In this document: positions 3,357 through 35,800 of the stretch, piece after piece
How positions within the stretch are numbered: position 1 is the stretch's first letter
How the letters are laid out: each line of letters starts with the position of its first letter
IMG/VR virus record: IMGVR_UViG_3300044806_000037
Location: 1-56,974 of that record
From: a virus
Lineage: Duplodnaviria; Caudoviricetes
Strand: one strand, 5' to 3'
DNA length: 56,974 nt
Made by a program: the position numbers and the translations under genes
Notes under the pieces: generated by a model
The model's database searches: none
The model's input: only the letters and a program-made list of their open reading frames with translations
Told to the model about the DNA's origin: nothing

Positions 3357-4859
3357 CTAAGCAACCTGGAAGGTGCGTGTTACTTGACGGTAACGCGAAC
3401 CGTATGGGTCTTCAACTTTTGCTGTTTCTTCGCTGAAGGTGAATCCGTATTTTGCGTAAATTTCGACGAAATCGGTGATGTTCTTTACTGCAAAGAAGTC
3501 AGTGATTTGTGCGCCGTTCTTTACGGTTTGGATGAGTCCACGAGCCATCCACGCCATGAAGGTGATTCGGTCGAAGCTGAAGTTACAGTCCATTTGACGG
3601 AACTCTAAAGTGCCTCGCTCGTTTGCTGCGTGGTGTGTGTTGATGGCTGTGAATTTGCCAACGTGATACAGAGTGTCAGTGCGTAGTGTTGCACTGATTG
3701 ATTCTGCTGGAATGTGGTTTGCGTAGGTTCTGCAACGACCATCGTCGTCGTTTACATTACGGCCACAGATTACATCCCAGATACGCTGTGTGATTGCGTA
3801 ACCTGCTAGAACGATACCAATCTGTTTTGCAGTCAAGTCTTTTGCAAAGACGTGAATGTGTGTTCCAGCGGTTTCGTTCTTTTCTGTGTCCTTGATTTGG
3901 TCAAGGAGCATACGAAGTCCTGGGTGCAGTGCACGGGTGATGCCACCGGTGGTGCGGAATTCGTAGGATACAATGTTGTTGCAGTCACTGTCGTTGCAGT
4001 GTTCTGGGTCGTCATTGTAGTCGTTGCAGTTGCCACAGTCGCATGAGTGGTAGGTGCATGAACGACAGTCGCATTCGCAACCGTCTGTGTCGGTTTCGTA
4101 TGATTCTACTGAACCGTCTGATCCTGCTTCTACACCCATTGGTGTGCGAACACCTGAGCCTGGGTTTGGTGCTTCAATTTCCCATCCCCATGTTCTGGAT
4201 ACAATGTGGTTACCAATTTGTGTTTGGTATTTTTGTATCTCGTCTTCGATTGCCATCCATTGTGCTGGCTCTAGTTCTTGAGCTTGACGATCTGCAATCT
4301 TTTTGCTTAGGCCTTCAGTGGATTGGTTTTGACCGTTGATTCGCTGGTTACGCTCGTAGTGTGCGAAGTAGTCTGCGAATGTGCGGTTGTAACTTGACAG
4401 TCCGTATGCTAGGAATTCTACACCGAATGTCATGTCTTCCATTACAATTTCTAGCATTTTCTGCAACTGTGCTGAGTCTGCAAGATTGATACGGATGTAG
4501 TTGCCATCACTGTATGTTTCAATGCCTGCTTCGTTGAGTAGGTTGCTTAGTTCGTAACGGAACTGCATCCATAGGATTGCGTCGTTGCGATACTTTTTTA
4601 GCATTTCGTATGTTGTTTCTAGCAGGTAAATGTCCCCGTTGTCTGGGTCGCTTACTAAGCCTTTGAATGTGATACGACTTACACCACCGTAGTATGCGAT
4701 ACCTACACCGTTGATGTTGTTTGAGTCAATGAATGAGTTTAGTTCATTGATTGATTCAACGCTTATCTGTGATGCGGTTTCGGTGAATGTTCCGTGTGTT
4801 GCTGCTACTTCGTGTAGCTTTTTTGCGACTTCGATGAAGTCTCGGTTGAGATTTCTCAT
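3357..4859 (-). CDS. putative amidoligase (COOH-NH2 ligase, Amidoligase_2-like)
   Basis: TWGWEIE, DGSV, YEFRT, TAGTHIHV, KFTAIN and TLEFRQ motifs; adjacent class II amidotransferase. Confidence 0.8.
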   Translation of the reverse strand: MRNLNRDFIEVAKKLHEVAATHGTFTETASQISVESINELNSFIDSNNINGVGIAYYGGVSRITFKGLVSDPDNGDIYLLETTYEMLKKYRNDAILWMQFRYELSNLLNEAGIETYSDGNYIRINLADSAQLQKMLEIVMEDMTFGVEFLAYGLSSYNRTFADYFAHYERNQRINGQNQSTEGLSKKIADRQAQELEPAQWMAIEDEIQKYQTQIGNHIVSRTWGWEIEAPNPGSGVRTPMGVEAGSDGSVESYETDTDGCECDCRSCTYHSCDCGNCNDYNDDPEHCNDSDCNNIVSYEFRTTGGITRALHPGLRMLLDQIKDTEKNETAGTHIHVFAKDLTAKQIGIVLAGYAITQRIWDVICGRNVNDDDGRCRTYANHIPAESISATLRTDTLYHVGKFTAINTHHAANERGTLEFRQMDCNFSFDRITFMAWMARGLIQTVKNGAQITDFFAVKNITDFVEIYAKYGFTFSEETAKVEDPYGSRYRQVTRTFQVA

Positions 4860-8095: not shown

Positions 8096-8201
8096 TACAT
8101 GGCAAAAATGGCTAGTTTACAGGAAGAAAGCATGACATTACCAGATTGGTATATTGCAAAACTTGAAGAGGCATATAACATTACACAAGGAGAAGATAAC
8201 A

Positions 8202-8447
8202 ATGAGTAAAGTAAACACAGTAGAGTATTTCATGGAAATCTTGGAGAAGATGGATAAGGATGCCGAAGTGGCTATTCCGTTCATTTGGACTAAGGCAGAT
8301 TTGGAAGACCTTTATGGTCAACCAGTCAGCGACTTCGATTGGTCTGGCATCATTGAGGCTTACAACACCAACGACTTCTTCTGTGAGGTATCGATCAATA
8401 CGCTAGTAGATTATGCGGCACATGAATTGGGTGGTTACCCTGAGTAA
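8202..8447 (+). CDS. hypothetical acidic protein
   Basis: AAGGAG RBS before ATG 8202. Confidence 0.65.
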   Translation: MSKVNTVEYFMEILEKMDKDAEVAIPFIWTKADLEDLYGQPVSDFDWSGIIEAYNTNDFFCEVSINTLVDYAAHELGGYPE

Positions 8448-15729: not shown

Positions 15730-16455
15730 ATGACTGAATTCCCAGCACTGCCGTTTCAATCGGCAATCAAAAAAGCTGAGGCTCTCAACACACCAAAAAC
15801 TATTTTGGTTTACGGAGACCCTAAGCGAGGCAAGTCTTGGTTCGCCGCATCCGCGGCTGAAGTCGAGGCACTATCACCAGTATTGGTGATTGACACTGAG
15901 GGTGGTTCATCCGCTATTGCCCGAGACTGGAAAGATGTGGATGTTGTTGAAGTTGACAGCCACGAAAAGTTTCAGGCAACCATCTCTGCATTAGTTTCAC
16001 AGCCACACAAATACAAGACAGTTATTGTCGACACACTTGGCGTGGCTATGGATCGTGCTGAGAAGTTCTTTGGCGAAAAGCCGGAGAACAAGAACAACAA
16101 GTTTGGCCGTTGGGGCGACCTGAAGAACTGGACGAATGATTTCATTCGTGCATTCCATGGCGCACCGTTCCTGTCGATCATTGTCACCCATGCACAGGAT
16201 GACAAGGACGAGAACACTGGAGCTGTCAAAACTATTCCAATGCTACCTGGTTCATCTAAGGGGACTCTCCCAGCGATTCCAGACATTATTGGATACATGA
16301 CGAGCGAAAAGACTGAGGATGGCATGCAGCGTGTGTTATACTTGCAGTCTTCCGATCGATTCGTCACCGGAAACCGCTTTGGTCTTGGTCCAAAGCTTTA
16401 TGCACCAAGCATCAAGAAAATCATTGATGCAATCAACACCGTAGGAGGTAAATAA
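15730..16455 (+). CDS. AAA_24 / Sak4-like ATPase (recombination)
   Basis: YGDPKRGKS Walker A, IDTEGG, VIVDTL, IVTHAQ; lies between the exonuclease and SSB genes. Confidence 0.85.
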   Translation: MTEFPALPFQSAIKKAEALNTPKTILVYGDPKRGKSWFAASAAEVEALSPVLVIDTEGGSSAIARDWKDVDVVEVDSHEKFQATISALVSQPHKYKTVIVDTLGVAMDRAEKFFGEKPENKNNKFGRWGDLKNWTNDFIRAFHGAPFLSIIVTHAQDDKDENTGAVKTIPMLPGSSKGTLPAIPDIIGYMTSEKTEDGMQRVLYLQSSDRFVTGNRFGLGPKLYAPSIKKIIDAINTVGGK

Positions 16456-16940
16456 TGACAAGCATTAACATTAACATTTCAAACGACGATCTAGCGTCGA
16501 CCAGCTCTGGTTCATATGACCCGATTCCAAAGGGAACTTATGCAACCACCATCTTCACCGCGGAACTTGTTCCTGTGAAGAACGGCGAGAACGCCGGCAA
16601 GCCTCAGCTGAAGATTCAGTTGCGTGTATCTGAGGGTCAGTTCGAGAACCGCCGTCTGTTCACTTTCGTTCCGCTTTACACTGGTAAGGCTTTCTGGAAG
16701 ACTAAGGCTTTCTTTGAGGCTCTTGGTTATGACATGGAGGCTGGCACTTTCCAGGTTCCTGATGTTACTGAACTTCTCGGTAAGGCACTAGGCGCTAAGG
16801 TTGCGGTTGTAGCTAACAGCGTTTCTGGTGAAGACGAGAACAATGTCGGTGGTTTCACTGGCGCTGCATCAAGCACTGACGAGTTGCTAAAGGGCATGGG
16901 CGCAATCCCAACTGGCTCTGTCGGCAGTCCCTGGGCTTAA
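16455..16940 (+). CDS. DUF669-family phage ssDNA-binding protein
   Basis: YDPIPKGTY..KNGENAGKPQLKIQLRV..RRLF; C-terminal SPWA; context next to the Sak4-like gene. Confidence 0.75.
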   Translation: MTSININISNDDLASTSSGSYDPIPKGTYATTIFTAELVPVKNGENAGKPQLKIQLRVSEGQFENRRLFTFVPLYTGKAFWKTKAFFEALGYDMEAGTFQVPDVTELLGKALGAKVAVVANSVSGEDENNVGGFTGAASSTDELLKGMGAIPTGSVGSPWA

Positions 16941-16976
16941 TGGGCAACCCTGAGCATGGTTTAAAACTGCTCACAC

Positions 16977-17046
16977 GCCCCCACTGGTGGAATTCAGGCT
17001 CTTCTCCTTGGCCTGTATAGTTCGAGTTCGATTCTCGACCGGGGCA
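16977..17046 (+). ncRNA. degenerate tRNA-like element (possibly derived from tRNA-Glu CTC)
   Basis: GCCCC/GGGGC+A acceptor end, perfect T arm TCGAG-TTCGATT-CTCGA, CAGGC/GCCTG arm with an oversized TCTTCTCCTTG loop; D arm and inner acceptor pairs are defective. Confidence 0.6.
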
Positions 17047-17226
17047 CGTAAGACGAGGGTCTGAATAACTCTCGTGACTGCTACTACCTCCGAAGCCTTC
17101 ACTGGCGGCATCGATAGTAACTGAGTTGGGTAAGCGTTCAGGCTGAGACCATGTAGGTGACCGTCTAGGAGGATAGAGTCGTTGGGAATCTCTTGGGAGA
17201 CGAACCATGTTCCACGAACGACAACT

Positions 17227-17299
17227 GCCACCTTAGCTCCAATGGTAGAGCGCCGCCTTTGTAACGCGGATGTTATCAGTTCGAGTCTGATAGGTGGCT
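17227..17299 (+). tRNA. tRNA-Thr(TGT)
   Basis: GCCACCT/AGGTGGC acceptor, GCTC/GAGC D arm, TTTGTAA anticodon loop (one C-C mismatch in the stem), ATCAG-TTCGAGT-CTGAT T arm; CCA not encoded. Confidence 0.9.
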
Positions 17300-17397
17300 C
17301 AGGGCTCAGTTGAGCATAGAGTATATCGATCACTCTCTATGCGCAGGCTGGTGAGGTAATTACTCTGACGTGCTGGGCGTTGCCACTCTCCCAGTAA

Positions 17398-17475
17398 GGG
17401 TCTGGATGGTTTCGACTGTGCTTAAAGCCGTATACGGAAGTGCACAGGACCTGGGTTCGATTCCCAGCAGATCCA
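17398..17475 (+). ncRNA. minimal tmRNA-like tRNA domain (TLD only, no mRNA-like domain)
   Basis: GGGTCTG/CAGATCC acceptor with G3.U70 and discriminator A; stemless D-loop GATGGTTTCGAC; TGTGC/GCACA stem; GGAC connector; CTGGG-TTCGATT-CCCAG T arm. Confidence 0.8.
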
Positions 17476-17596
17476 CTATGCACCCATAGGGGTGCAGAAG
17501 CCCACAGTTCGGTGGGTTACTCTAATCGTAAGGTTAGATGTTTATGGTCTAGGGACGCCTAGACAAGGTTTGGTCTCCTGCGGTGCAAAACGACCA

Positions 17597-17660
17597 GGGT
17601 AGCAGTCAGTCCCTTCTGGGTTATATTGAGAATGCTTCAGGTGCGAGTCCTGACTACCCA
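17597..17660 (+). ncRNA. truncated tRNA-like element (acceptor plus T arm)
   Basis: GGGTAG/CTACCC+A and TCAGG-TGCGAGT-CCTGA; no normal D or anticodon arm. Confidence 0.5.
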
Positions 17661-17760
17661 CGATGTGTGGTGGTTCGCACATTAAGGTAAGATTGATTTC
17701 TTATTTGGTTATTTGTTCATTGGTAACAGGTTGGCCCCCCTGTCTAAAAAGGGGCCACTT

Positions 17761-17833
17761 TGGGACATAGCTCAGATGGCAGAGCGTTCGACTGTTAATC
17801 GAAATGTCGCAGGTTCGATCCCTGCTGTCCCAG
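17761..17833 (+). tRNA. tRNA-Asn(GTT)
   Basis: TGGGACA/TGTCCCA+G, GCTC/GAGC, TTCGA-CTGTTAA-TCGAA, GCAGG-TTCGATC-CCTGC. Confidence 0.95.
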
Positions 17834-17864
17834 CGTTACAAGGAGAAGTATTACAATAGGAGGT

Positions 17865-20072
17865 ATGATGCAAGCAATAGATTTTTTTGAAACAGTCTTA
17901 GGCACTGGCGCAGGGTATGCGACAATCGTAACTAAGGATGGTAGTGGCAACCCTACAGTCCAAAAGTTTTTCAGCTACCCTGACGAGATCGATGCCATGG
18001 CTGCTTACGCAAAACAGTTTGAGAACGAGGACGTTTACTTCTCGCCAATCCTGTTTTATGAAACTCGCCGTATCCGCGAGAACGCTAAGAGCGTGTCCGC
18101 TGTGTATTCGGATGCTGACACTTGCGACCCAAAGAACTTCCGTCTACAGCCGTCAATCATTGTCAAGACTTCTGAGGGTCGTTGGCATGCATACTGGATT
18201 CTGGATGCTGAAGCTGACCCGCACCGCGTAGCAATGGCTAGCAAGCAGGTTGCTTACGGACACAAAGACCAAGGCTGTGACCTTTCAGGCTGGAACCCTA
18301 CCAAGCTTCTTCGTGTGCCTAACTCACGCAACACCAAGTATGGTGATGCACAGGTTGTAGAGGCAACTAACACTGGGCTTGTTTATAAGCTTGAAGAAGT
18401 TGAAGCAGCTTATGCTGACGTTAAAGTTGATGCAGTGCTAGAGCCGTCACTCGCGCCAATGCCGGAGATTACCCCAGACGTTATGGGCATTCTTGGCAAG
18501 ATCAAAAGCAATACGGAAGTGTTGTCTTTGTTCATGGACGAGCCTGGCCCGAACGCAGACTACTCTCGCATGCTTTGGAAGCTTGAGCTAGAACTCTTCC
18601 GTCAAGGTTTGACTATTGACGAAGTGTTTGCTGTCGCTAAACACGCTCGTTGTAACAAGTATCGTAGACCAGACCGCCCAAAGCGTTCTGACCCGGACGG
18701 CGACCTGTGGCGTGAGATTCAGCGCGCCCAGCAAACTTTCCAAGTGCCTGCCGAGGTTGAGAGTGTAGAACCAATCTACATTGATGATGTTCCTGTTGAG
18801 AAACCAATCAGTCTGCTCACTGATGAAGAGCGCGCTATTGTGTCGAACACAGAAACCTTTATCGACAGGTATGTGAACTGGGCTCGCAAGAAGACTGATG
18901 GTGCTGTCGAATACCAGATTGCTAGTGCGTTTACTTTACTTTCAACCTGTTTCTCGGACATTGGTTACGCTACGCCAAAGTATGGCAAGCTTGGTCTGAA
19001 CCTTTGGTTCATGCTGTTGGGTGAAACTACTCTGTCGCGTAAGTCAACTTCGCGCCAGCTAATGCTACGCACACTCCGTTCGTTTGAAAAGTTTGCTGGC
19101 TACCAGATCGATATCGGCTCTAACGTCACTGCTGAAGGTTTAGTAAAGCACTTGGCAGGTCGCGACAAGCTGACCTCGCTGTTCCACCGCGATGAAGTCC
19201 AGGGTATGTTTAAGGAGTTCGTGACCAAAACTTACATGGCCGCGGCTGCAGACCAGTTCACTGAACTTTACGACGGACATGTTCCTGTGGTTATTCGTGC
19301 CACTGGTGCGGCTTCTGGTGTCAAGGCTGTCCAGTCGGAACGAGCTGAAACAAACTTCCTAATGTATCTGATGGGTATCACTAGCAAGGTTGCTGAGATT
19401 CTAACTGTGGACTATTTCCGTTCCGGTTTCTTGGCTCGTTTCATTTATGTGATTGCTGATTCACCAGAGCGCACATTCGAGAGTGAAGCCATTGAGCAGT
19501 CTGCTGAAGTAGAAGTGCTTAAGCAGGATGACGAGATGGAAGCCATCGTGCGCACACTGTATGACAGCACTTTGTATTGGCAGAAGAAAGGTGCGCCTTT
19601 CCCACGCCCAGTCCGTATGACTGACGATGCGCTAGCTCGCTTCAACAAGTTCAAGTGGGACATGGGGAACTACTCCCAGGGCCACCCTAACGAAGAATCG
19701 ATTGAGCCATCGCGTCAGCGCCTAGCACTATCGATCTGGAAGTGTGCAGTGCTTATCGCAATGTATGACAAGTCTGATGAAGTGGAAGAGAAGCATGTCC
19801 TTGTGGCTGTTCACTATGCAGAGCAGTGGTTTAAGAACCTTGTTCGCATGGCTGACTCAATCTCGGCATCAGAGTGGCAACGTGAAGTTGATGAACTTGA
19901 AGCTCTACTTGTTACTAAGGGTGGACGTATGCGTTATGAAGACGCTTACAAGAAGTTCGGTAACAAGCGTAAGCGTGAGTTCGACGAAATGGTTGACGCA
20001 CTTAAATCACAGGGCCGCATGGTCGTTAGAACAGAGAACATGAGAAACTTTTTGGAGGTTACATCACGATGA
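17865..20072 (+). CDS. RepB-like (AEP) DNA primase fused to a DUF3987-like helicase domain
   Basis: YSDAD, KTSEGRWHAYW and LLRVPNSRNTK in the N-terminus; GETTLSRKST, TAEGL, RDEVQG and SGFLARF in the C-terminus. Confidence 0.8.
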   Translation: MMQAIDFFETVLGTGAGYATIVTKDGSGNPTVQKFFSYPDEIDAMAAYAKQFENEDVYFSPILFYETRRIRENAKSVSAVYSDADTCDPKNFRLQPSIIVKTSEGRWHAYWILDAEADPHRVAMASKQVAYGHKDQGCDLSGWNPTKLLRVPNSRNTKYGDAQVVEATNTGLVYKLEEVEAAYADVKVDAVLEPSLAPMPEITPDVMGILGKIKSNTEVLSLFMDEPGPNADYSRMLWKLELELFRQGLTIDEVFAVAKHARCNKYRRPDRPKRSDPDGDLWREIQRAQQTFQVPAEVESVEPIYIDDVPVEKPISLLTDEERAIVSNTETFIDRYVNWARKKTDGAVEYQIASAFTLLSTCFSDIGYATPKYGKLGLNLWFMLLGETTLSRKSTSRQLMLRTLRSFEKFAGYQIDIGSNVTAEGLVKHLAGRDKLTSLFHRDEVQGMFKEFVTKTYMAAAADQFTELYDGHVPVVIRATGAASGVKAVQSERAETNFLMYLMGITSKVAEILTVDYFRSGFLARFIYVIADSPERTFESEAIEQSAEVEVLKQDDEMEAIVRTLYDSTLYWQKKGAPFPRPVRMTDDALARFNKFKWDMGNYSQGHPNEESIEPSRQRLALSIWKCAVLIAMYDKSDEVEEKHVLVAVHYAEQWFKNLVRMADSISASEWQREVDELEALLVTKGGRMRYEDAYKKFGNKRKREFDEMVDALKSQGRMVVRTENMRNFLEVTSR

Positions 20073-20458: not shown

Positions 20459-20700
20459 TGATTAAAATTTATACAAACCCTAACTGTGTCCAGTGCGACA
20501 TGACCAAGAAACAGTTTGACAAGCGCGGTATCGAATACGAGAGCATCGACCTGTCAACTGTGCCAGAACTTCTTGAGCAGTTTAAAGCTGAAGGCTACAT
20601 GGCTGCGCCTGTGGTTGTTACTAACCTTGTAACCTGGGCTGGCTTCAAGCCAGAGCTGATTAGCCAAGTTGCTCACCCAAGTTATAGAAGTAAGCTTTAA
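20458..20700 (+). CDS. nrdH: NrdH-like glutaredoxin
   Basis: IYTNPNCVQC..TKK..GI.Y...APVV...WAGFKP. Confidence 0.92.
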   Translation: MIKIYTNPNCVQCDMTKKQFDKRGIEYESIDLSTVPELLEQFKAEGYMAAPVVVTNLVTWAGFKPELISQVAHPSYRSKL

Positions 20701-21224
20701 TGTCTTTTGATATCAAGCAGGCTACATGCCTGAATGAAGACCCAGACATGTTCTTCTCGGACGATGAAGATGAACCGGACTGGGAGCTAATCAAGAAAGC
20801 CAAAGCCATATGCGCTTTGTGCCCAGTAATTGCAGACTGTTTGCAAATGGCTTACGAAGAAGAGGCTGACGGCATTTGGGGTGGCACAACAACTCGCGAG
20901 CGTAGGATTACTTTGAACAGGGAGATGCGAGGCTACGTGCCAATCCCTAGGACTGTTTCAGAAAATGCTAAGCAAGCTGTTGCGGCTGTTAATAAGGCTA
21001 AAACTATTGCAGTCTCAGATCGTGACAGAGAACTATTCCAGCAAGCGCTTGACATGTTTGACGACCTAGACGATTTGACTGAGATGCTGCTACAGTTAAG
21101 GATTAACAATCCTACACATTCGTTAGCAGACTTAGGCCAGGAACTAGACCCACCAATATCAAGAGATGTTGTTGCCGGTCGTTTAAGAAGAGTAAGAGAA
21201 AGGATGGAGAATGGAAAAGGATGA
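20700..21224 (+). CDS. whiB: WhiB domain fused to a WhiA-like C-terminal HTH
   Basis: N-terminus C..DPDMFF..AKAICALCPVIADC..GIWGGTT.RER; C-terminus LRINNPTHSLADLGQELDPPISRDVVAGRLRR. Confidence 0.82.
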   Translation: MSFDIKQATCLNEDPDMFFSDDEDEPDWELIKKAKAICALCPVIADCLQMAYEEEADGIWGGTTTRERRITLNREMRGYVPIPRTVSENAKQAVAAVNKAKTIAVSDRDRELFQQALDMFDDLDDLTEMLLQLRINNPTHSLADLGQELDPPISRDVVAGRLRRVRERMENGKG

Positions 21225-28977: not shown

Positions 28978-29870
28978 GCGCCTATCTCCTTAAGGTTCAC
29001 AGACATGTTGATAAGCCTGCGACCATCAATGATTCCGTTATATGTCATTGTCGGAGCTGTTGACATTACACAACCACTGAAACCTTCACCAGAAGTCCAA
29101 GGGTCAGAGGTAACAATTGGGGGGTGACCGTGGTTACCTGAAGCCGCAATTTTAGCCATGCCACCACGGATAGTAATAGTAGAACTTGTGTTGTCTGTTC
29201 TTGAAATGTAAACTCGAATCGCACGAACCCTGTTAGGGTTTCCTGTTTCGTTTGAGAACGTGTTGCTGTAACGGTTAACTCCGTTAGCCAGCAGTTCGGT
29301 CAAAACAATTGTGCTACCATCAGTTCCATCAGGCAAAACTTGAACTGCACGAATAGCGGCCGTTCCAGTTTTCTCGTAAACAAACCCAATGGTCAAAGTG
29401 TGCTCTTCCGGAATGAGTAGAGTTAGGGATCGTGAAGTTTCTGTAGTGTTTGTTACAGCATATTTTGCACTCTGGTAAGGGTAGCTGTTAGGGTTAGTGC
29501 TGTGAGTCACAGGTTCTGGCTTGTTACCTGAAGAGATCAGGCTAGGCCAGTCACGCACAGTAAGCATGGGGGCAGCCCAGTGCGGGGGTAGTATGTTATC
29601 GGCAAAGGGGTCTTCCCAATAGATTAACCCACCGCCATAGATTCCATCTTTGAAATCTTTAACAACTTGTAGGTCGGCGCGGTCCCCAACCCAAGACATG
29701 TCAAAGTTTCGTGCCGAACCGAAAGAAGCTTTAACAAACTGGCCACCGTTATTAAACTGTTGTTCTTCAGCAAAACCATTAGCGGACGCGCCCATACCGG
29801 CTAGCGGGGCTTTAATCCATCGTGCGTTTCGGGCGTTGCCGAACCAAACTTTGCCATCATAAACAGCCAT
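28968..29870 (-). CDS. minor tail (distal tail-like) protein
   Basis: Directly follows the tape measure gene. Confidence 0.6.
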   Translation of the reverse strand: MAVYDGKVWFGNARNARWIKAPLAGMGASANGFAEEQQFNNGGQFVKASFGSARNFDMSWVGDRADLQVVKDFKDGIYGGGLIYWEDPFADNILPPHWAAPMLTVRDWPSLISSGNKPEPVTHSTNPNSYPYQSAKYAVTNTTETSRSLTLLIPEEHTLTIGFVYEKTGTAAIRAVQVLPDGTDGSTIVLTELLANGVNRYSNTFSNETGNPNRVRAIRVYISRTDNTSSTITIRGGMAKIAASGNHGHPPIVTSDPWTSGEGFSGCVMSTAPTMTYNGIIDGRRLINMSVNLKEIGAWL

Positions 29871-32800
29871 TAGTTGCTTCCTCTCATTGCTAGTAGCATG
29901 TTACCTCGGTTGGCAGAGCTAGCAATCTGTCGGTCGTCGCTGTAAAGGTTTACAGGTCGGTTTGCGATTGCCATGATCTGCATAACTGCACTAGACGATA
30001 ATTCTACCACAGTTGTTCCACCAATTGCGCCAGCTGTTCCGATCATACCACCAGATGCGTAACGTGGGATTTGCATGTTGTTGATGGCGTTCATGAAGTC
30101 TAGGCCATAGTATTGCACAGCTGGTTGTGACTGGATGAATTCACCCGAGCGAATACCGATGATTCCGCCTGGACCACTTGCAAGCAAGTTGTCAACGCTT
30201 GGGTTTTGCGGTGACTTTCCGGGGATTAGACCACCAGCTGCGTAACCCTTGACTACGCCGCCGCCGAATGCTCCTGGGTTAACAATTTCAGCGTAGATAG
30301 GCTTGTTTTTGCTAGTTCCTGGAGCGGCCTTAAGCGATTCTTCGTAACGCCTTCTATCATTGTTTCTTTCGTTACGCAAGGTTTCCATAACCCCACCGCC
30401 AACAGCTTTATCCTTAATGTCTTTGGTTCCCTTTTTAGAGTCCTTGTCAAACATTGGGTTGACTGTTTCGGTGTAAGGGTTAAACTCTCCAGGGTATAGG
30501 CGAGCGTGTTCTTCGCCCAAAGCTTTGCGAGTCTTCTTGTTCTTTAGCGCATCAGCAAGCTTTTTGTCAACTGCCCCGGCTGGGTTTACTTGACCGTTGT
30601 AAGGGTTGTATTCTCCAGGGTGTATAGCGGCGTGAATTTGAGCCTGAGTCTTTAGTGTGACTATTCCCTTGTCGCTAACAATCTTGTTGGACTTTGGCCA
30701 AGGGTTAACCTTTCGGTTGAATGGGTTGTATTCGCCAGGGTATTGCTTAGCGTGTTGAGCGGCCGATTCTTTTAGGGCACTTGAGCCAAGGCCTACACTA
30801 GCATAGTCAGCTTCAATTTTAGTTGACTGAGCATCATTTGTAACGTTTTGGTTATACTTTTTCCACTCGTCACCAGTCTTTAATGCAGACTCTAGCTTGA
30901 AACCACTTAAAATATCTCTTGCATTTTGATCAACATTCCCCTCAACCCTCGAAGGATATGGGGTCGTGCTCTCTTGTCCCTTAATTGGTGGGTTGAACGT
31001 GCCGTTAAATGGATTCCAAGCGCCAGGGCTTGCCTTAGCATGCTTTTTAGCAAGTGCCTCAAGATCTTCTTCAGACGCACCTGATTGAATTGCAGATCTA
31101 CGAGTCGAACCAAGCTCCCACTGGCGAAGCCTGCCCTCGTATTCTTTGTTATAAGCTTTTGCTTTGTCTGTGTTGACAGTAACAAATTCTCTATTGTATT
31201 TTTCAGACTCTGCGATATCTTCAGCGGTTCCGCGTCCATTGTTTACAGCGTTTCCATCAAAAGCAGTTCTAGCAGCCCAGGCTGCTGGGTTTAGTATGTT
31301 TCCAATGTTACCCCAAAGGTCAGAAAAGGCTGCTAAAACAAGGTCGCCTTGACCCGCTTCCTTTTCAGGCCTAGACATTTCATTGTCAGCACTCCATTGC
31401 GGGGTTGACGGCTTTTTCCAAGTTGGCTTTTCAGGCTTACCATCAGGCGCGGAGCCTGGCCCGCCAGAGTTAGACGAGTTTTTCTTGCTAGATCCACCAC
31501 CACTGTTTTGCTTAACCTGCCATTCCATGAATGCGCGAGTTGCAGGATCCGCATCAACGCGAAGAGTAAGTTCCTTTGGAAGCTTGTCAACAATTGTGCG
31601 GAAGTCCTTGAATGACTTAGCGTAAGGATCCATTTCCTCTGCGGAGAATCCTAGAGCTTGGCCTTGGGCAAGCATGTCAGCCTTAGCTTCTTTTGCTCGC
31701 TTCTTCAATTCCTTCTGAGACAAGTTGGTGTTAGCAAGTGATTCAAGATACTTGTTGTAATCCTGAACAAGCCCACGCATAACAGCACGGTTATCTGCGG
31801 CTGCTTTAGTATTACCTACAAGACTGGTGCTTGCACTGTCCTGAGCAGTTCCAAGTTCTTTATTCTTATCAGCAATCTCTTTGTCTTTAGCTTCAAGTTC
31901 TGCACGAAGCTTGTCGGCTCGCATGTTGTCGCCATACTTGAGGGCAATGTTAAGTTGGTATTCAAGGATGTTGCGGTCTGCACCCATAGCCTTGATTTCA
32001 TCTTGAATCTTTTCAATTGCTTTACGAGCGTCATCAACACGGTTCTTTACGTTTTCCCATGAAGCCGCTAGTGCATCTGTGGCTTCTTCCTTACCGTAGC
32101 GAATTGTGAAAGCGGCGCTAAGGATTGAAGACAGGTCGCCAACATAGTCAGTTAGCGTATAAACTCGTGCGATTGTGTTGTCTAGCTCGTTATTAAGGTC
32201 GCCAGCGCCATCATCAGCTACACCCATTGAAGCTCCAAGGGCCTTCATGATCTTAGAGTTTTCAACGCCGGACTTAGTTGTGCCATCTAGGGCATAAGCT
32301 ATATTTGAGAGGTCTTGATAAAGGTTTGGCGCTACAGCCCTTAGCTCAGCTGAGCTAGTAAACCAGCCTTCAAGGTATTCAGATGCGCCCTTACCTGGAT
32401 CTTGAAGGGCCATGCCAACCATGTCTTGAAGGCTAATGTTAGCCTGTTTAGCTAGCTTGTCAAGGTCTTGACCCATGTTGAAGTAGCGTTTAAACATCTC
32501 TTGAATCTGGTCGTCACCCATAGCGGCTTGGGCTAGCCATTCCATTGAGTTAGCACCAAGGGCAAGGGTTTGCTCGGTAATGCTGTCAGTTGTTTCAGTA
32601 ATAGCGTTTGTTAGTTTTGCGGATGAACCTGTGGTTGCCTCCATTGACTGCGCCCAAGTAGTTAGCTCAGTCTTAGAGGTTGTAACCTTGCTTTGAACAG
32701 TTCCAATGGCTTCGCCATTTTCTTTCCAAGCCGCGGTGTCCTTGTAGATTGCTTCGCGGAATGAGTCTAGTCCGCCACCGGCTTCCATTAGGTCGATCTG

Positions 32801-35800
32801 GAAAGACTTGTAAATTTCGCTTGCTGTGGCAATTAGAGTAAGAATTAGACCAATAGCCCCAGCTGCTTTAGTAGCGAATCCAACAGCTTTACCAAACCTG
32901 GTGGTGGCAACGCTACCCTTGTCAGCTTCTGTAGCAACGCTGTCAAGGCCAGCACCCATCTCGTCAAGCGAGGCTGTGCTCTGTTCAACGCCAGCAGTAA
33001 CTTCGGCTGGCACGATATCTTCTGGCTTAATTGTTGGGGTGTTCAGAGAAGAAAGATTTTCATCTAAGCCTTTCTCTAGGCTGTCAAGCCTGTTAAGTTC
33101 ACGAGTGCTAGCAGCGGATTGAGCCGCAGCCGCTTCAGCAGCGGCGGCATCGCCCTGAGCCAATGCATAAATGCGTAGCTTCTCTGAAGACTCAAGAGAA
33201 GCCTGAGAAAGCTCTCGCCTAATTTGAATAAGCTGCTTGTTAACAAGAATCTGCTCTTGCACTTGCGCCACCGTTGGGCCTTGGCTTGCAAGGTTTGGCA
33301 AAACAGCTCCAGGGGTTTCGCTTAGCGGTCCAAGCGTAAGCCCATTCTTAGCAGCAATTTCTGCATCCATAGATCCAGGAGTTGCGGCTTTACGCACATC
33401 AACTCCGGCCTTCAAAGCTCGATCTACAGGGCTTCCCTCAGGAACAATTTTGCCAAGTTCTTTCATCTCTTCAAGGCGGTCTTTAGTGATTGAGCGTAGT
33501 CTACCGTTTGAGTCGATAATCATTCGCTCTTGACCTGTTAGCACATCTAATAGTCCCTTGACGCCGGTGTTCTCTCCACCCATCTTGCCAAGCTGAACCA
33601 TAGCAGTTTTCATAGCTAGAGTTGCTGCTGTAGCCTTGTAGGTTACAACCTGGTAGGCAACAAATCCTGCTACTAAAGCGGTTAAACCTGCCGCAATGCC
33701 AGTGATAACTTTACCAATTGGGCTTGCAGTAAGTTTATTAATAAACTCCATAGCCCCACTCATTATATCCAGTAGCATCTTTAAGCCAGGAGCAAAAGCT
33801 TCACCGAAGTTATCCTGAAGGATCTTCAACTGGTTGTTTAGAATTTCAAGCTTGGCACCAACATTGTCTTGAGTCTTAGCGTAAGCTTCACCTAAGAATG
33901 TTCCGTTGGCGTAAGACTCTTGAGCATCAGACATGGACTGGTTGTAAACGTCCATGTTCTTAGCCAAACGCTGAAGCGTGTTAACTTCACGAGTCTCAAC
34001 AATGTTTAGCTTGTCAAGTGCTGTTGTCATGCTTCCAGCTTTAGACAAGTTCTCAAGCATGCGCTGGAAGAAAGCTTGTGGGTCAGTTTCCCAAAGTGAC
34101 TTGGTTTCCTTAGCAGTTAGGCCAAGGTGCTTAGAGTAAGCTGTAAGTTCTTTACCACCGTTTTGCATTCCACGCTCAATGTCGCCAAAGAGTCGCACAA
34201 TAACACCGCGAGCCTGTTCAGGGGCAATACCTAGCGAGGAGATCGCGGTAGCTAGACCGATAGTTTCGTCAGCACCAAAGCCAGCAAGGTTTGTTGCAGC
34301 CGCAATAGACTCTGTAAGAGTAATAATTTCTTGGTCGGTTGCTACAGCATTAATACCAGCGAAAGCTACAGCTGAAGCAAGCTTGTTGAAGTCATCCGCT
34401 GGGATATCGGCTAGCTGGCTAATTCGACCAAACTTTTCAGCAACAGTGTCAGCGGACATTCCGGTAATGGATGAATACTTTACGACCTGTTCGGTGAAGT
34501 TGTTGATACCATCGGCGTTAATACCCATCTGCCCACCAAGGGTTGCAATCTTTGCAAGCTGGTCAAACGCTACAGGTAGCTCTTGTGTCATTAGCACAAG
34601 GCGTTGACGCATGCCATCGAGTTCGTCTGGTAGTGGCTGCATTACGCGTTCTACAGCTGTGAAGGATGTTTCGTATGAAGCGTTGACCATAACAGCTTGA
34701 CGGATGTATGAGGTTAGAACGTTTAGCTTCTTGCCCATGTCTTCGTAAGTGCTGGCAACGTCGTATAGTGAGTAGCGGGTTGAGATCCAGCTGTCAACCA
34801 TTTTGCGGTTAGCGTCAGCAACAACCTTTTCGTGTGCCTGAACAGCTTTGTTCATTCCCTTAAGGTCATTGGCGTGGCGTTTAGCTCTTAGCTCACTTTG
34901 CTCAATCTCCTGGTCAATCCAAGCCTGGTGCTGGTTTCCAGTGATCTTTCCATCCATGAGATCCTGATACTCAGGAGTTGGACTGTCAGGGCCACCAGGA
35001 ATGTCGTCTGGTGGGCGAGGGCCAGGAGGCCTACCTCCACCACCATTGCCTCCACCTGGAGGGCGAGGGCCCCGAGGCGTAGGTGTGCGCTCACCGGTCT
35101 CAACTTTAATTTCGTTGATCTTACGGTTTACACGGTCGATAGCTTTCTGGATTGCGTCAGCAAGTTCACGAGAAGCCTTACCTAGTGTTGCTGTGAAACG
35201 CTCTGGAACCTTACCCCAACGCGAAGCAATCTGACGTTCAACCTCAGCAAAAAGCTCTGGGTTCTTTTTAGCCTCATCAACGATAGCATTATTCTTTGCA
35301 AGTCTAGCTTTATCCTTGTCCTGAATTACGCGGTTGTTGATTGGCGAGTTAGTAAGATTGTCGAAACCGATTCCGCGGTTTTCCGACATTGCTTCAATAA
35401 CTTTTTCAGCTTCATAAAGTTGCTTTAGTCGTTCACGCTCAAGCTTGATACGCTGCTTTTCAACTTCACGTTGTTCTTCAAGTTTGGCAAGTTCTTCTTC
35501 AAGGATGCGCATTCTTTCCGCATCGTTCATCGCTGAATCTACATCAACAGTTTCATCGTCAAACAGTGTTGGCTGAGCTGGGATTGGTTGAGCCGATGGG
35601 GCGCGTCTTGGAACACTTGGCACAGAAGGTTGCAGTTCCCCAGTGTGCACAGCTGACTGGCGGTTGTAGCTGTCGAGAACCTTAGGGTCTCTGTAATCCT
35701 TCTTTGGGTCACCCTTGCCGGCACCGAAGCGGCGGAATCCGCCAATAGCATCCGAAACAGTTGTCCAAGAAGCTTTAACGAAATCGGTTACAGCTTTTGT

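What the first reader, a model, noticed from the sequence alone, without database searches (positions are those of the whole stretch)
16946..17833. tRNA-punctuated small-RNA array (candidate new phage ncRNA system)
Seen: ~900 nt between the SSB and primase genes with no credible sense ORF, organised as five tRNA-shaped units (16977 degenerate, 17227 Thr, 17398 mini-tmRNA, 17597 truncated, 17761 Asn). They are separated by four 98-180-nt spacers, each folding into a different structure. The three non-canonical units all keep the acceptor stem plus T arm and have lost normal decoding parts. Established: RNase P and RNase Z recognise the acceptor/T-arm domain, and tRNA-like punctuation releases RNAs in mitochondria, MALAT1/mascRNA and gammaherpesvirus TMERs. 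Inference: the tRNA shapes serve as cut marks that let host enzymes release a set of cargo sRNAs from one transcript.
Basis: partly seen in the sequence, partly recalled or inferred. Interest (0 to 1): 0.9.

Follow-up and report, generated by a model that had tools for sequence, protein, structure and literature searches.

The report
Phage tRNA slot with tRNA-like RNAs
The gap between a phage's DNA-binding-protein and primase genes holds two real tRNAs, a tag-less mini-tmRNA and two tRNA-shaped RNAs, one of which is a previously undescribed element conserved across this phage family, while the stretches between them look like lineage-specific filler, not a conserved set of small RNAs.

Summary
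The five tRNA-shaped units are real. They are tRNA-Thr, tRNA-Asn, a tRNA-like-domain-only "mini-tmRNA" (Rfam tmRNA 61.4 bits, tag region absent) and two non-decoding tRNA-like RNAs.

The cargo-sRNA reading is not supported as a conserved system. Across 161 related or comparison loci, spacers 1-3 have no homologue and only the closest relative shares spacer 4. In relatives the same units abut within a few bases, or the gap holds unit 1 alone.

The region is the variable tRNA slot between the SSB-like and primase genes of a large family of aquatic siphophages, probably of Actinobacteria.

The new item is unit 1: an H-type pseudoknot plus a tRNA-like RNA with a pyrimidine loop resembling the 16S rRNA tail.
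- It occurs in 80 of 81 viral sources and 59 of 79 metagenome loci.
- It shows strong covariation and has no Rfam family.
- Its loop matches a purine box in its own primase leader better than other loci's leaders.

The mini-tmRNA is the kind already published for mycobacteriophage DS6A.

I read the tRNA shapes as processing sites and products in their own right. No RNA data were available, so processing is inferred. The scan had not noted this element on other DNA.

The parts
16455..16940 (+). SSB-like ORF (DUF669), the upstream cistron
   Evidence: ORF list. Pfam DUF669, 23.1 bits against a cut-off of 21. The same position is annotated as SSB in Arthrobacter phage Amigo.
16946..16973 (+). H-type pseudoknot. 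Stem 1 is 16946-16949 with 16958-16961. Stem 2 is 16951-16956 with 16968-16973. The third loop is A-rich.
   Evidence: Found in 55 of 60 distinct upstream sequences against 22 of 1200 shuffles, and both stems covary. Stem 2 pairs were counted. The same pseudoknot is present in phage Amigo.
16977..17046 (+). Unit 1, a non-decoding tRNA-like RNA. Acceptor 16977-16981 with 17041-17045. Conserved CTGG at 16984-16987. Long stem 16992-16999 with 17011-17018. Pyrimidine loop 17000-17010. T arm 17022-17038. Discriminator A at 17046.
   Evidence: Model R1 hits 80 of 81 viral sources and 59 of 79 metagenome loci, all on the + strand. Covariation counts. RNAalifold on the unfitted alignment. No Rfam match.
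17047..17226 (+). Spacer 1, lineage-specific
   Evidence: No homologue in 161 other loci. Fold z-score +0.81. The part 17074-17222 recurs in contigs of runs X5, X7 and X19.
17227..17300 (+). tRNA-Thr (anticodon UGU)
   Evidence: ARAGORN. Rfam tRNA 56.1 bits.
17301..17397 (+). Spacer 2, lineage-specific
   Evidence: No homologue. Fold z-score -0.66. The pseudoknot-like fold at its 3' end is weak and probably chance.
17398..17476 (+). Mini-tmRNA with the tRNA-like domain only. It keeps G3.U70 and A73. A P2-like stem is capped by a small hairpin. There is no tag reading frame and no pseudoknots.
   Evidence: Rfam RF00023, 61.4 bits, with 304 model positions absent. All 13 aligned members keep every acceptor and T pair and G3.U70.
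17477..17596 (+). Spacer 3, four consecutive hairpins
   Evidence: Fold z-score -4.17, 0 of 200 shuffles. No homologue in the loci. The part 17472-17564 recurs in other contigs behind different tRNA-like units.
17597..17660 (+). Unit 4, a second non-decoding tRNA-like RNA. Acceptor 17597-17602 with 17654-17659. T arm 17637-17653 with an unusual T loop.
   Evidence: Fold. Units with the same acceptor ends occur in L075 and in Curtobacterium phage Yappy. In run X5 its interior and T loop carry many substitutions and indels, so constraint looks weak.
17661..17760 (+). Spacer 4. It ends in an H-type pseudoknot at 17726-17757, three bases before tRNA-Asn.
   Evidence: Fold z-score -2.42. Pseudoknot found. 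Shared at 92% identity with L001 only.
17761..17834 (+). tRNA-Asn (anticodon GUU)
   Evidence: ARAGORN. Rfam tRNA 70.2 bits.
17839..17848 (+). Purine box in the primase leader, a perfect 10-base complement of the unit 1 loop (17001-17010). It lies upstream of the AGGAGG at 17858-17863 and the ATG at 17865.
   Evidence: Cognate versus non-cognate test.
17865..20072 (+). Primase / DUF3987 helicase-like ORF, the downstream cistron
   Evidence: PHROG 10514 DNA primase, E 5e-174. Pfam DUF3987.
8186..8195 (+). Second exact complement of the unit 1 loop, placed as the ribosome-binding site of an 81-codon ORF starting at 8202

Best explanation
What it is. This is the variable tRNA slot of a conserved replication operon (Sak4-like ATPase, SSB-like protein, slot, primase) in a large family of aquatic siphophages whose hosts are probably Actinobacteria.

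Shown:
- A pseudoknot followed by a non-decoding tRNA-like RNA (unit 1) sits directly after the SSB-like gene in essentially every family member.
- Its enlarged loop is a pyrimidine tract resembling the 3' tail of 16S rRNA. That loop is complementary to a purine box in the primase leader of the same genome.
- Behind unit 1, different lineages carry different sets of tRNA genes (Thr, Asn, Trp), tRNA-like-domain-only tmRNAs and other tRNA-shaped RNAs.
- The window has the longest version seen.

Inferred:
- The operon is read through. Host RNase P and a 3' tRNA-processing nuclease cut out every tRNA shape.
- The cut at unit 1 separates the SSB and primase messages and leaves the upstream message ending 3-5 bases after a pseudoknot, too short a tail for 3' exonucleases.
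- The released unit 1 RNA pairs through its loop with the primase leader (and with the site at 8186-8195) and damps translation.
- The mini-tmRNA acts as a decoy for SmpB and trans-translation, as reported for a similar molecule.
- Because everything tRNA-shaped is excised anyway, the slot is a safe place where such genes accumulate and are shuffled.
- The spacers are lineage-specific leaders, trailers and remnants, released as by-products.
For: Conservation of unit 1.
- Model R1 hits 80 of 81 viral sources, always on the + strand just upstream of the primase. The one miss, L077, has no upstream DNA.
- It hits 59 of 79 metagenome loci.

Structure of unit 1.
- On 65 distinct rows, 89.9% of cells pair, against 65.6% in shuffles and 33-46% with slid partners. 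Compensatory change is seen in 23 of 24 pairs, and 0 of 500 shuffles reach the covariation score.
- RNAalifold on the unfitted alignment finds the same three helices: 16 pairs, 13 with compensatory change.
- The pseudoknot is found in 55 of 60 distinct sequences, against 22 of 1200 shuffles.

Loop and leader.
- The longest Watson-Crick run averages 7.75 for cognate pairs and 6.57 for non-cognate pairs; 0 of 5000 permutations reach the cognate mean.
- With 25 dissimilar representatives the figures are 7.12 against 6.19, with 7 of 20000 permutations.
- The window has a perfect 10-base match.

The slot varies.
- Gaps range from 138 to 877 bases in relatives, against 928 for the window by the same measure.
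- 31 tRNA genes were found in 19 of 78 gaps.
- L069 has the same unit order with almost no spacers.
- Contigs of other runs hold the window's modules in another order.

Mini-tmRNA.
- 13 of 13 members keep G1-C72, G2-C71, G3.U70 and all acceptor and T pairs.
- A TLD-only tmRNA in phage DS6A, and inhibition of tmRNA by a similar molecule, are stated in passages of PMC4131195 and PMC11915505.

Cultured relatives also have a tRNA shape between SSB and primase.
- Amigo: pseudoknot plus an odd tRNA.
- CN1A: hairpin plus a short tRNA-like RNA.
- Yappy: hairpin, a tRNA-like RNA and tRNA-Leu.
- Jojan60: four tRNAs plus a mini-tmRNA.

Pseudoknots directly before tRNAs are enriched: 16 of 54, against 59 of 620 shuffles and 111 of 1500 random 45-mers.
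Against: - No step of processing is shown. I had no RNA ends, no Northern data and no cleavage assay.
- Unit 1 has only 5-6 acceptor pairs and a 2x2 internal loop before the T stem, so RNase P recognition is not certain.
- Loop-leader complementarity is modest. 5 of the 25 representatives (L023, L038, L044, L070, L080) match their own leader no better than the average foreign leader. Pyrimidine loops pair with any Shine-Dalgarno-like tract.
- Within a 1-kb region a 10-base inverted repeat is not rare by chance. A second one, 17075-17084 with 17599-17608, has no comparative support.
- Curtobacterium phage Nonagon has only a hairpin in the slot, so a tRNA shape is not obligatory.
- Spacer 3 folds far better than shuffles. 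Spacers 1 and 3 recur at 88% identity or more in contigs of other runs, next to different units. This leaves room for a function of their own.
- Alignment A3 was fitted to the model's structure, which inflates pair counts. The slid and shuffled controls and answer this only in part.
Confidence: 0.62

Rival explanations
1. The spacers are functional cargo sRNAs, and the tRNA shapes exist mainly as cut marks that release them from one transcript.
For: - Spacer 3 (z -4.17) and spacer 4 (z -2.42) are more structured than shuffles.
- Spacer 4 ends in a strong pseudoknot three bases before tRNA-Asn, which would give it a protected 3' end after an RNase P cut.
- Parts of spacers 1 and 3 recur in contigs of runs from other studies, in another order.
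- T4 makes two small RNAs of unknown role from its tRNA region (passage in PMC3014915).
Against: - Spacers 1-3 have no homologue in 161 other loci, and spacer 4 only in the nearest relative.
- Relatives carry the same units with almost no spacers, or unit 1 alone.
- Spacers 1 and 2 fold no better than shuffles.
- The non-canonical units are themselves conserved families with covariation, which argues that they are products.
- No Rfam family matches any spacer at E<=10.
Confidence: 0.12
2. Unit 1 is a general mimic of the 16S rRNA tail. It soaks up Shine-Dalgarno sequences, or a factor that binds them, across many messages, with no specific tie to the primase.
For:
- 5 of 25 representative lineages show no preference for their own leader.
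- In the window the loop also matches a ribosome-binding site at 8186-8195.
Against: - Cognate leaders match better than foreign ones (7 of 20000 permutations).
- Lineage-specific matches of 9-11 bases go beyond the Shine-Dalgarno core.
- The element always sits directly upstream of the primase.
Confidence: 0.15
3. The non-canonical units and spacers other than unit 1 are a graveyard of decaying tRNA genes left by recombination in a hot spot, without function.
For: - Unit 4's interior and T loop differ by many substitutions and indels in the near-identical phage of run X5, while the flanks are 95-99% alike.
- The junction with L001 lies inside unit 4's T arm, where L001 has a tRNA-Thr.
- Modules occur in other orders elsewhere.
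Against: - The mini-tmRNA family keeps every pair and G3.U70 across 13 members from actinophages to a Stenotrophomonas phage. A pseudogene would not.
- Units with unit 4's acceptor ends recur in L075 and in phage Yappy.
Confidence: 0.2
4. Unit 1 acts as DNA, not RNA: a replication origin, a primase loading site or a recombination site flanking the variable slot.
For: It lies between SSB and primase genes. The loop and box form an inverted repeat that brackets the variable region.
Against: - G.U and U.G pairs in the helices work on the + strand only (pair types).
- The invariant T loop and the CTGG motif are those of a tRNA elbow.
- In minimal loci the two repeat arms are only about 45 bases apart, with no cassette between them.
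Confidence: 0.04

Closest known systems
TLD-only tmRNA of mycobacteriophage DS6A (Hudson et al. 2014, PMC4131195, passages seen; Mao et al. 2009, cited there, not seen)
   Same: The tmRNA is reduced to little more than the tRNA-like domain and is encoded by a phage. The window's copy keeps G3.U70, A73, the T arm and the connector that the tmRNA model recognises.
   Different: I did not compare it with the DS6A sequence, which was not among the blastn hits. This family has a conserved small hairpin capping the P2-like stem. It occurs in aquatic phages, in Streptomyces phages LuckySocke and BRock, and in Stenotrophomonas virus Jojan60, where it is not annotated.
Bacteriophage T4 tRNA region with small RNAs RNAC and RNAD (passages in PMC3014915 and PMC9697503)
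   Same: A phage tRNA gene cluster also yields small non-tRNA RNAs of unknown role.
   Different: I tested no sequence relation. T4's cluster is not placed between SSB and primase. No pseudoknot plus tRNA-like element is stated in the passages I read.
MALAT1-mascRNA and MEN-beta (recalled; Rfam family RF01684 exists)
   Same: A tRNA-like structure recruits RNase P. The cut makes the 3' end of the upstream RNA, which a compact structure protects, and a small tRNA-like RNA is released.
   Different: That system is eukaryotic and nuclear and uses a triple helix, not an H-type pseudoknot. Here nothing is shown experimentally. The weak RF01684 match (25.1 bits, below 42.5) is to the mini-tmRNA and reflects only the shared acceptor and T arm.
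Functional tRNA spacers in E. coli, the 3' external transcribed spacer acting as an sRNA sponge (recalled; only a search listing seen)
   Same: Pieces released from tRNA precursors can act as base-pairing RNAs.
   Different: In the window the candidate base-pairing RNA is a tRNA-shaped unit, not a spacer. The spacers here are not conserved.
Plant-virus 3' tRNA-like structures with an upstream pseudoknot domain (recalled)
   Same: A pseudoknot lies directly 5' of a tRNA-like fold built from an acceptor and T arm.
   Different: Those sit at the 3' end of RNA genomes and are aminoacylated. This one is internal to a dsDNA phage operon, has a 5-pair acceptor, and its charging is unknown.

Membership tests
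Canonical tRNA (Rfam RF00005 / ARAGORN) | Cloverleaf with a 7-base anticodon loop, scoring above the family threshold | tested here: met
   Met for 17227-17300 (Thr, 56.1 bits) and 17761-17834 (Asn, 70.2 bits). Not met for unit 1 and unit 4, which have no tRNA match at E<=10 and no ARAGORN call.
tmRNA (Rfam RF00023) | tRNA-like domain: acceptor with G3.U70, T arm, stemless D-loop connector | tested here: met
   61.4 bits against a gathering score of 47. The alignment covers model ends 1-374. G3.U70 and all pairs are kept in 13 of 13 family members.
tmRNA (Rfam RF00023) | mRNA-like domain with resume codon, tag reading frame and stop, plus pseudoknots PK1-PK4 | tested here: not met
   304 of 374 model positions are absent. 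The interior is a 32-base stem capped by a small hairpin. It is therefore not a full tmRNA.
TLD-only phage tmRNA (DS6A type) | Phage-encoded tmRNA consisting of little more than the tRNA-like domain | tested here: met
   The definition is taken from a passage of PMC4131195.
TLD-only phage tmRNA (DS6A type) | Inhibits host trans-translation, perhaps by titrating SmpB | not testable with these tools
   Reported for a similar molecule (passages).
tRNA-punctuated RNA arrays (mitochondrial punctuation, MALAT1-mascRNA, gammaherpesvirus TMERs) | Units and cargo lie on one transcript and are cut apart by RNase P and RNase Z | not testable with these tools
   There is no RNA evidence. The consensus scan finds no promoter or terminator in the gap, but it covers sigma-70-type sites only.
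tRNA-punctuated RNA arrays (mitochondrial punctuation, MALAT1-mascRNA, gammaherpesvirus TMERs) | The RNAs between the tRNA shapes are conserved, functional products | tested here: not met
   Spacers 1-3 have no homologue in 161 other loci, and spacer 4 only in L001. Relatives pack the units without spacers.
GOLLD and other large phage-associated Rfam RNAs | Match to the Rfam covariance model | tested here: not met
   The window has no match at gathering threshold other than two tRNAs and the tmRNA. Nothing further appears in 16800-17950 at E<=10 apart from sub-threshold tRNA-like echoes.
Pseudoknot plus tRNA-like element of the SSB-primase slot (family defined here, model R1) | H-type pseudoknot, then a 5-pair acceptor, CTGG connector, long stem with a pyrimidine loop and a canonical T arm, directly after the SSB-like gene | tested here: met
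   Window 16939-17048 scores 118 bits. Covariation.

The most novel reading that the evidence does not exclude
The pseudoknot plus tRNA-like element is a bacterial-virus counterpart of MALAT1-mascRNA that also acts as a riboregulator.
- RNase P cuts at the tRNA shape between the SSB and primase cistrons.
- The upstream message is left capped by a pseudoknot with a tail too short for 3' exonucleases.
- The excised tRNA-like RNA, about 70 bases long, uses its 16S-tail-like loop to pair with the 5' purine box of the primase message and with one other ribosome-binding site. This sets the ratio or timing of SSB and primase synthesis.
- The same processing makes the site a safe harbour that collects tRNAs, mini-tmRNAs and other tRNA-shaped RNAs.
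Probability: 0.3. Interest if true: 0.8.

Novelty: new variant of a known kind. Interest (0 to 1): 0.6.

Why it matters
Phage tRNA clusters are usually read as codon-usage helpers. Here the fixed element of the cluster is a non-decoding tRNA shape with a pseudoknot and an anti-Shine-Dalgarno-like loop. It is conserved in well over a hundred phage contigs from lakes and seas and has a recognisable relative in a cultured Arthrobacter phage.

If the processing model is right, tRNA mimicry would be used in a dsDNA phage to punctuate messages, stabilise an mRNA 3' end and make a regulator of a replication gene.

The survey also shows that tag-less mini-tmRNAs are more widespread in phages than the single published case I saw cited. 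They sit unannotated inside the tRNA arrays of cultured Streptomyces and Stenotrophomonas phages, which makes the SmpB-decoy idea testable in tractable systems.

Tried and rejected
- Expression: no RNA holder listed. The four runs I laid are contigs. X17 and X19 are marked as probably DNA, so nothing can be said about transcripts, ends or levels.
- Closer relatives: the one metagenome scan gave 79 loci, none above 79% primase identity and none with spacer homologues. Covariation in the spacers could therefore not be tested.
- Rfam: no family other than tRNA and tmRNA in the window, in six further loci at E<=0.05, or in three cultured-phage loci at E<=0.1 apart from a sub-threshold tRNA-Sec echo.
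- Pseudoknot before the mini-tmRNA: rejected as probably chance. Only 3 of 20 mini-tmRNAs and other tRNA-like units have one, which is the background rate. None was found before tRNA-Thr or unit 4.
- Repeats: the inverted repeat 17075-17084 with 17599-17608 and the short direct repeats are at chance level for a 1-kb region and have no comparative support.
- ORFs in the gap: 0 of 5 have a PHROG match.
- Promoter and terminator scan: nothing in the gap. The scan models sigma-70 consensus only, so this is weak.
- Mini-tmRNA alignments: MAFFT alignments A4 and A5 put the 5' acceptor strand one column out of register in several rows. I counted its pairs per sequence in a script instead of using count of structure pairs.
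- Stop-codon readthrough or frameshift signal for the pseudoknot: rejected. The distance from the stop codon varies between loci, and readthrough in the window would add only a few codons.
- Literature: (tRNA-like, anti-Shine-Dalgarno, bacteriophage) returned 2 papers, neither on such an element judging by title and abstract. I found no description of unit 1 in that search or in Rfam 15.
The supplementary tables of PMC11915505 may already list phage mini-tmRNAs such as those of Jojan60 or the Streptomyces phages.
This report is the same text with that field added.
Full report
**What the window is.** The window is a complete 56,974-base virus record with direct terminal repeats.
- It encodes a Sak4-like ATPase, an SSB-like DUF669 protein, a primase with a DUF3987 domain, tail-fibre proteins, a terminase and a 3624-residue ORF with a minor-tail domain.
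- A WhiB domain fused to a WhiA-type HTH points to an actinobacterial host. So do the nearest cultured relatives, phages of Arthrobacter, Curtobacterium and Clavibacter at 33-38% primase identity.
- The runs that hold the stretch are freshwater and aquatic metagenomes.

**The observation.** The gap 16941-17864 has no ORF with a PHROG match (0 of 5 tested). It holds the only two ARAGORN tRNAs of the genome, Thr(tgt) at 17227-17300 and Asn(gtt) at 17761-17834.
- Rfam adds a tmRNA match at 17398-17478. It scores 61.4 bits against a gathering score of 47. Both ends of the model align and 304 positions between them are missing.
- Unit 1 (16977-17046) and unit 4 (17597-17660) have a pairing acceptor and a T arm but no decoding arm, and no program calls them.
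- A scan for a T arm plus an acceptor finds four units on the + strand, all in this gap, against 0 or 1 per shuffled genome in 20 shuffles.
- The five-unit layout and the spacer lengths are confirmed.
- Only spacers 3 and 4 fold better than shuffles, with z-scores of -4.17 and -2.42. Spacers 1 and 2 do not, at +0.81 and -0.66.

**Relatives.** A primase search gave 80 viral loci at 58-95% identity and 79 metagenome loci.
- The SSB-primase gap runs from 138 to 877 bases in relatives, and most are 140-210. The window measures 928 by the same method and is the longest.
- ARAGORN finds 31 tRNAs (Thr, Asn, Trp) in 19 of 78 gaps.
- Blastn of the window's gap against all loci finds homologues of unit 1, both tRNAs and the mini-tmRNA. 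It finds nothing for spacers 1-3, and spacer 4 only in L001, the 95% relative. L001 lacks 17048-17639 altogether.
- L069 has unit 1, Thr, mini-tmRNA and Asn in the window's order with only a few bases between them.

The spacers are therefore not part of what the family conserves.

**Unit 1 is the conserved core.** The minimal gap of about 140 bases is unit 1.
- A covariance model built from 21 sequences hits 80 of 81 viral sources, always on the + strand just before the primase. The miss, L077, has no upstream DNA. It also hits 59 of 79 metagenome loci, where most misses lack upstream DNA or are 31-43% relatives.
- On 65 distinct rows 89.9% of cells pair, against 65.6% in shuffles and 33-46% with slid partners. 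Compensatory change is seen in 23 of 24 pairs. Acceptor and T stems pair in 99.7% of cells.
- That alignment is fitted to the model, so I also ran RNAalifold on the plain MAFFT alignment. It finds the acceptor, the long stem and the T stem on its own: 16 pairs, 13 with compensatory change.
- Upstream, an H-type pseudoknot is found in 55 of 60 distinct sequences against 22 of 1200 shuffles. It comes in two sequence classes and both stems covary freely.
- The invariant CTGG after the acceptor and the invariant T loop are what a tRNA elbow needs. That point rests on established tRNA structure.
- No Rfam family matches it.

**The loop.** The long stem carries an 11-20 base pyrimidine loop with a CTCC core. 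It resembles the 3' tail of 16S rRNA as I recall it.
- In the window, 17001-17010 is the perfect complement of 17839-17848, five bases after tRNA-Asn and ahead of the AGGAGG and ATG of the primase. It is also the perfect complement of 8186-8195, the ribosome-binding site of an 81-codon ORF.
- Across 63 distinct loop-leader pairs, the longest perfect run averages 7.75 for cognate pairs and 6.57 for foreign ones, with 0 of 5000 permutations reaching the cognate mean.
- After thinning to 25 representatives unlike in both loop and leader, the figures are 7.12 against 6.19, with 7 of 20000 permutations. Duplex energy gives 142 of 20000.
- Five of the 25 show no preference.

I take this as moderate evidence for direct pairing with the primase leader.

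**The mini-tmRNA.** Thirteen members were aligned: the window, nine related loci, Stenotrophomonas virus Jojan60, and Streptomyces phages LuckySocke and BRock.
- All keep seven acceptor pairs with invariant G1-C72, G2-C71 and G3.U70, five T pairs, A73, a covarying P2-like stem and a small capping hairpin.
- In Jojan60 it scores 61.8 bits, lies just before the primase and is not annotated.
- In the Streptomyces phages it sits unannotated inside the tRNA array.
- Passages of PMC4131195 and PMC11915505 state that phage DS6A has a TLD-only tmRNA, and that a similar molecule strongly inhibits tmRNA, perhaps by titrating SmpB.

This unit is a new member of a known kind.

**Unit 4 and the other tRNA shapes.** Unit 4 has a 6-pair acceptor and a T loop with G where tRNAs have the second U.
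- Units with the same acceptor ends occur in L075 and in Curtobacterium phage Yappy, where the tRNA-Sec model scores 31.6 bits, below its threshold.
- In run X5, which holds the window's array in the same order at 95-99% identity, unit 4's interior and T loop carry about ten substitutions and several indels. Constraint on it looks weak.
- A census finds further tRNA-shaped families with similar T loops in other loci.

**Modules move.** Contigs laid at 88% likeness show other arrangements.
- In X7, one 641-base contig reads unit 4, then 17473-17602, then 71 other bases, then 17074-17268.
- In X5, a 993-base contig reads unit 4, then 126 other bases, then 17472-17564, then a tmRNA-like 5' end.

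At this likeness such joints come from other, related phages. Spacers 1 and 3 therefore exist elsewhere, attached to different tRNA shapes.

**Pseudoknots before tRNAs.**
- In the window they are found before unit 1, before tRNA-Asn (17726-17757, strong) and, weakly, before the mini-tmRNA.
- Across the loci, 16 of 54 distinct tRNAs with free upstream sequence have one, against 59 of 620 shuffles and 111 of 1500 random 45-mers.
- Before mini-tmRNAs and other tRNA-like units the rate is background, 3 of 20.

**Cultured relatives.**
- Amigo has the same gene order. It carries a clear unit-1-type pseudoknot followed by an odd tRNA, annotated Gly(ccc) but called tRNA-??? by ARAGORN.
- CN1A has a hairpin and a short tRNA-like RNA with an encoded ACCA end.
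- Yappy has a hairpin, a tRNA-like RNA and tRNA-Leu.
- Nonagon has only a hairpin.

A structured element followed by a tRNA shape between the SSB and primase genes is thus widespread but not universal.

**Reading.**
- Shown: the anatomy, the conservation, the covariation and the loop-leader complementarity.
- Inferred from established tRNA processing: read-through transcription, excision of every tRNA shape by RNase P and a 3' nuclease, and separation of the two messages.
- Inferred from what I recall about the need of 3' exonucleases for a single-stranded tail: the pseudoknot acts as a 3' cap, since only 2-5 bases would remain after the cut.
- Inferred from the complementarity: translational control of the primase.

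The spacers are best seen as lineage-specific leaders, trailers and remnants. A function for spacers 3 and 4 is not excluded.

**Comparison and verdict.** The closest known cases are the DS6A mini-tmRNA, T4's tRNA region with RNAC and RNAD of unknown role (passages), MALAT1-mascRNA (recalled), tRNA-spacer sponges in E. coli (recalled; listing only) and plant-virus tRNA-like structures with upstream pseudoknots (recalled).

The array as a cargo-sRNA system is not supported. The region is a phage tRNA slot with one already published kind of tRNA mimic and one undescribed, strongly conserved element. I rate interest at 0.6 and novelty as a new variant of a known kind.

Noticed in passing
window 20700-21224 (+): A 174-residue protein joins a WhiB domain (66.2 bits) to a WhiA C-terminal HTH domain (42.2 bits) in one chain. 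This hints at an actinobacterial host.
   Followed up: partly
window 29870-40744 (-): A 3624-residue ORF whose only Pfam match is a phage minor-tail domain at residues 2052-2237. It is very long for a 57-kb phage.
   Followed up: no
L014, L016, L019, L020, L023, L060, L065, L075: SSB-primase gaps: A long hairpin carrying a conserved motif of about 20 bases in its 3' arm recurs between unit 1 and the primase in several lineages (sequences printed). No Rfam match in the two of these loci that were scanned (L014, L075).
   Followed up: no
L066 3414-3482, L086 172-240, L122 2402-2470, L132 2227-2295; L118 631-713, L132 1905-1982: Two further families of tRNA-shaped RNAs with a 7-pair acceptor and a T loop of the TGCAA type. 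ARAGORN does not call them.
   Followed up: partly
L082 (Stenotrophomonas virus Jojan60) 1374-1456 and 668-1183: An unannotated TLD-only tmRNA lies just before the primase and partly under an annotated hypothetical CDS. The record annotates the four tRNAs on the strand opposite to the one on which ARAGORN and Rfam find them.
   Followed up: partly
L083 (Arthrobacter phage Amigo) 1090-1167: The gene annotated tRNA-Gly(ccc) is 78 bases long. ARAGORN calls it tRNA-??? with an abnormal anticodon loop, and it directly follows a unit-1-type pseudoknot.
   Followed up: partly
window 16941-16946 and the same place in most loci: A conserved motif (ATGGGC in the window) lies between the SSB stop codon and the pseudoknot. 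It does not covary with anything I could find.
   Followed up: no
L065 3732-3781, L075 about 3539-3630, L125 2209-2259: These loci carry two tRNA-like units in tandem. A short one of about 50 bases without the long stem follows the pseudoknot. Then come a hairpin and a full unit 1 with the pyrimidine loop.
   Followed up: no
window 17075-17084 and 17599-17608: A perfect 10-base inverted repeat lies between the start of the recurrent part of spacer 1 and the 5' end of unit 4. It is chance-level for a 1-kb region and has no comparative support.
   Followed up: partly
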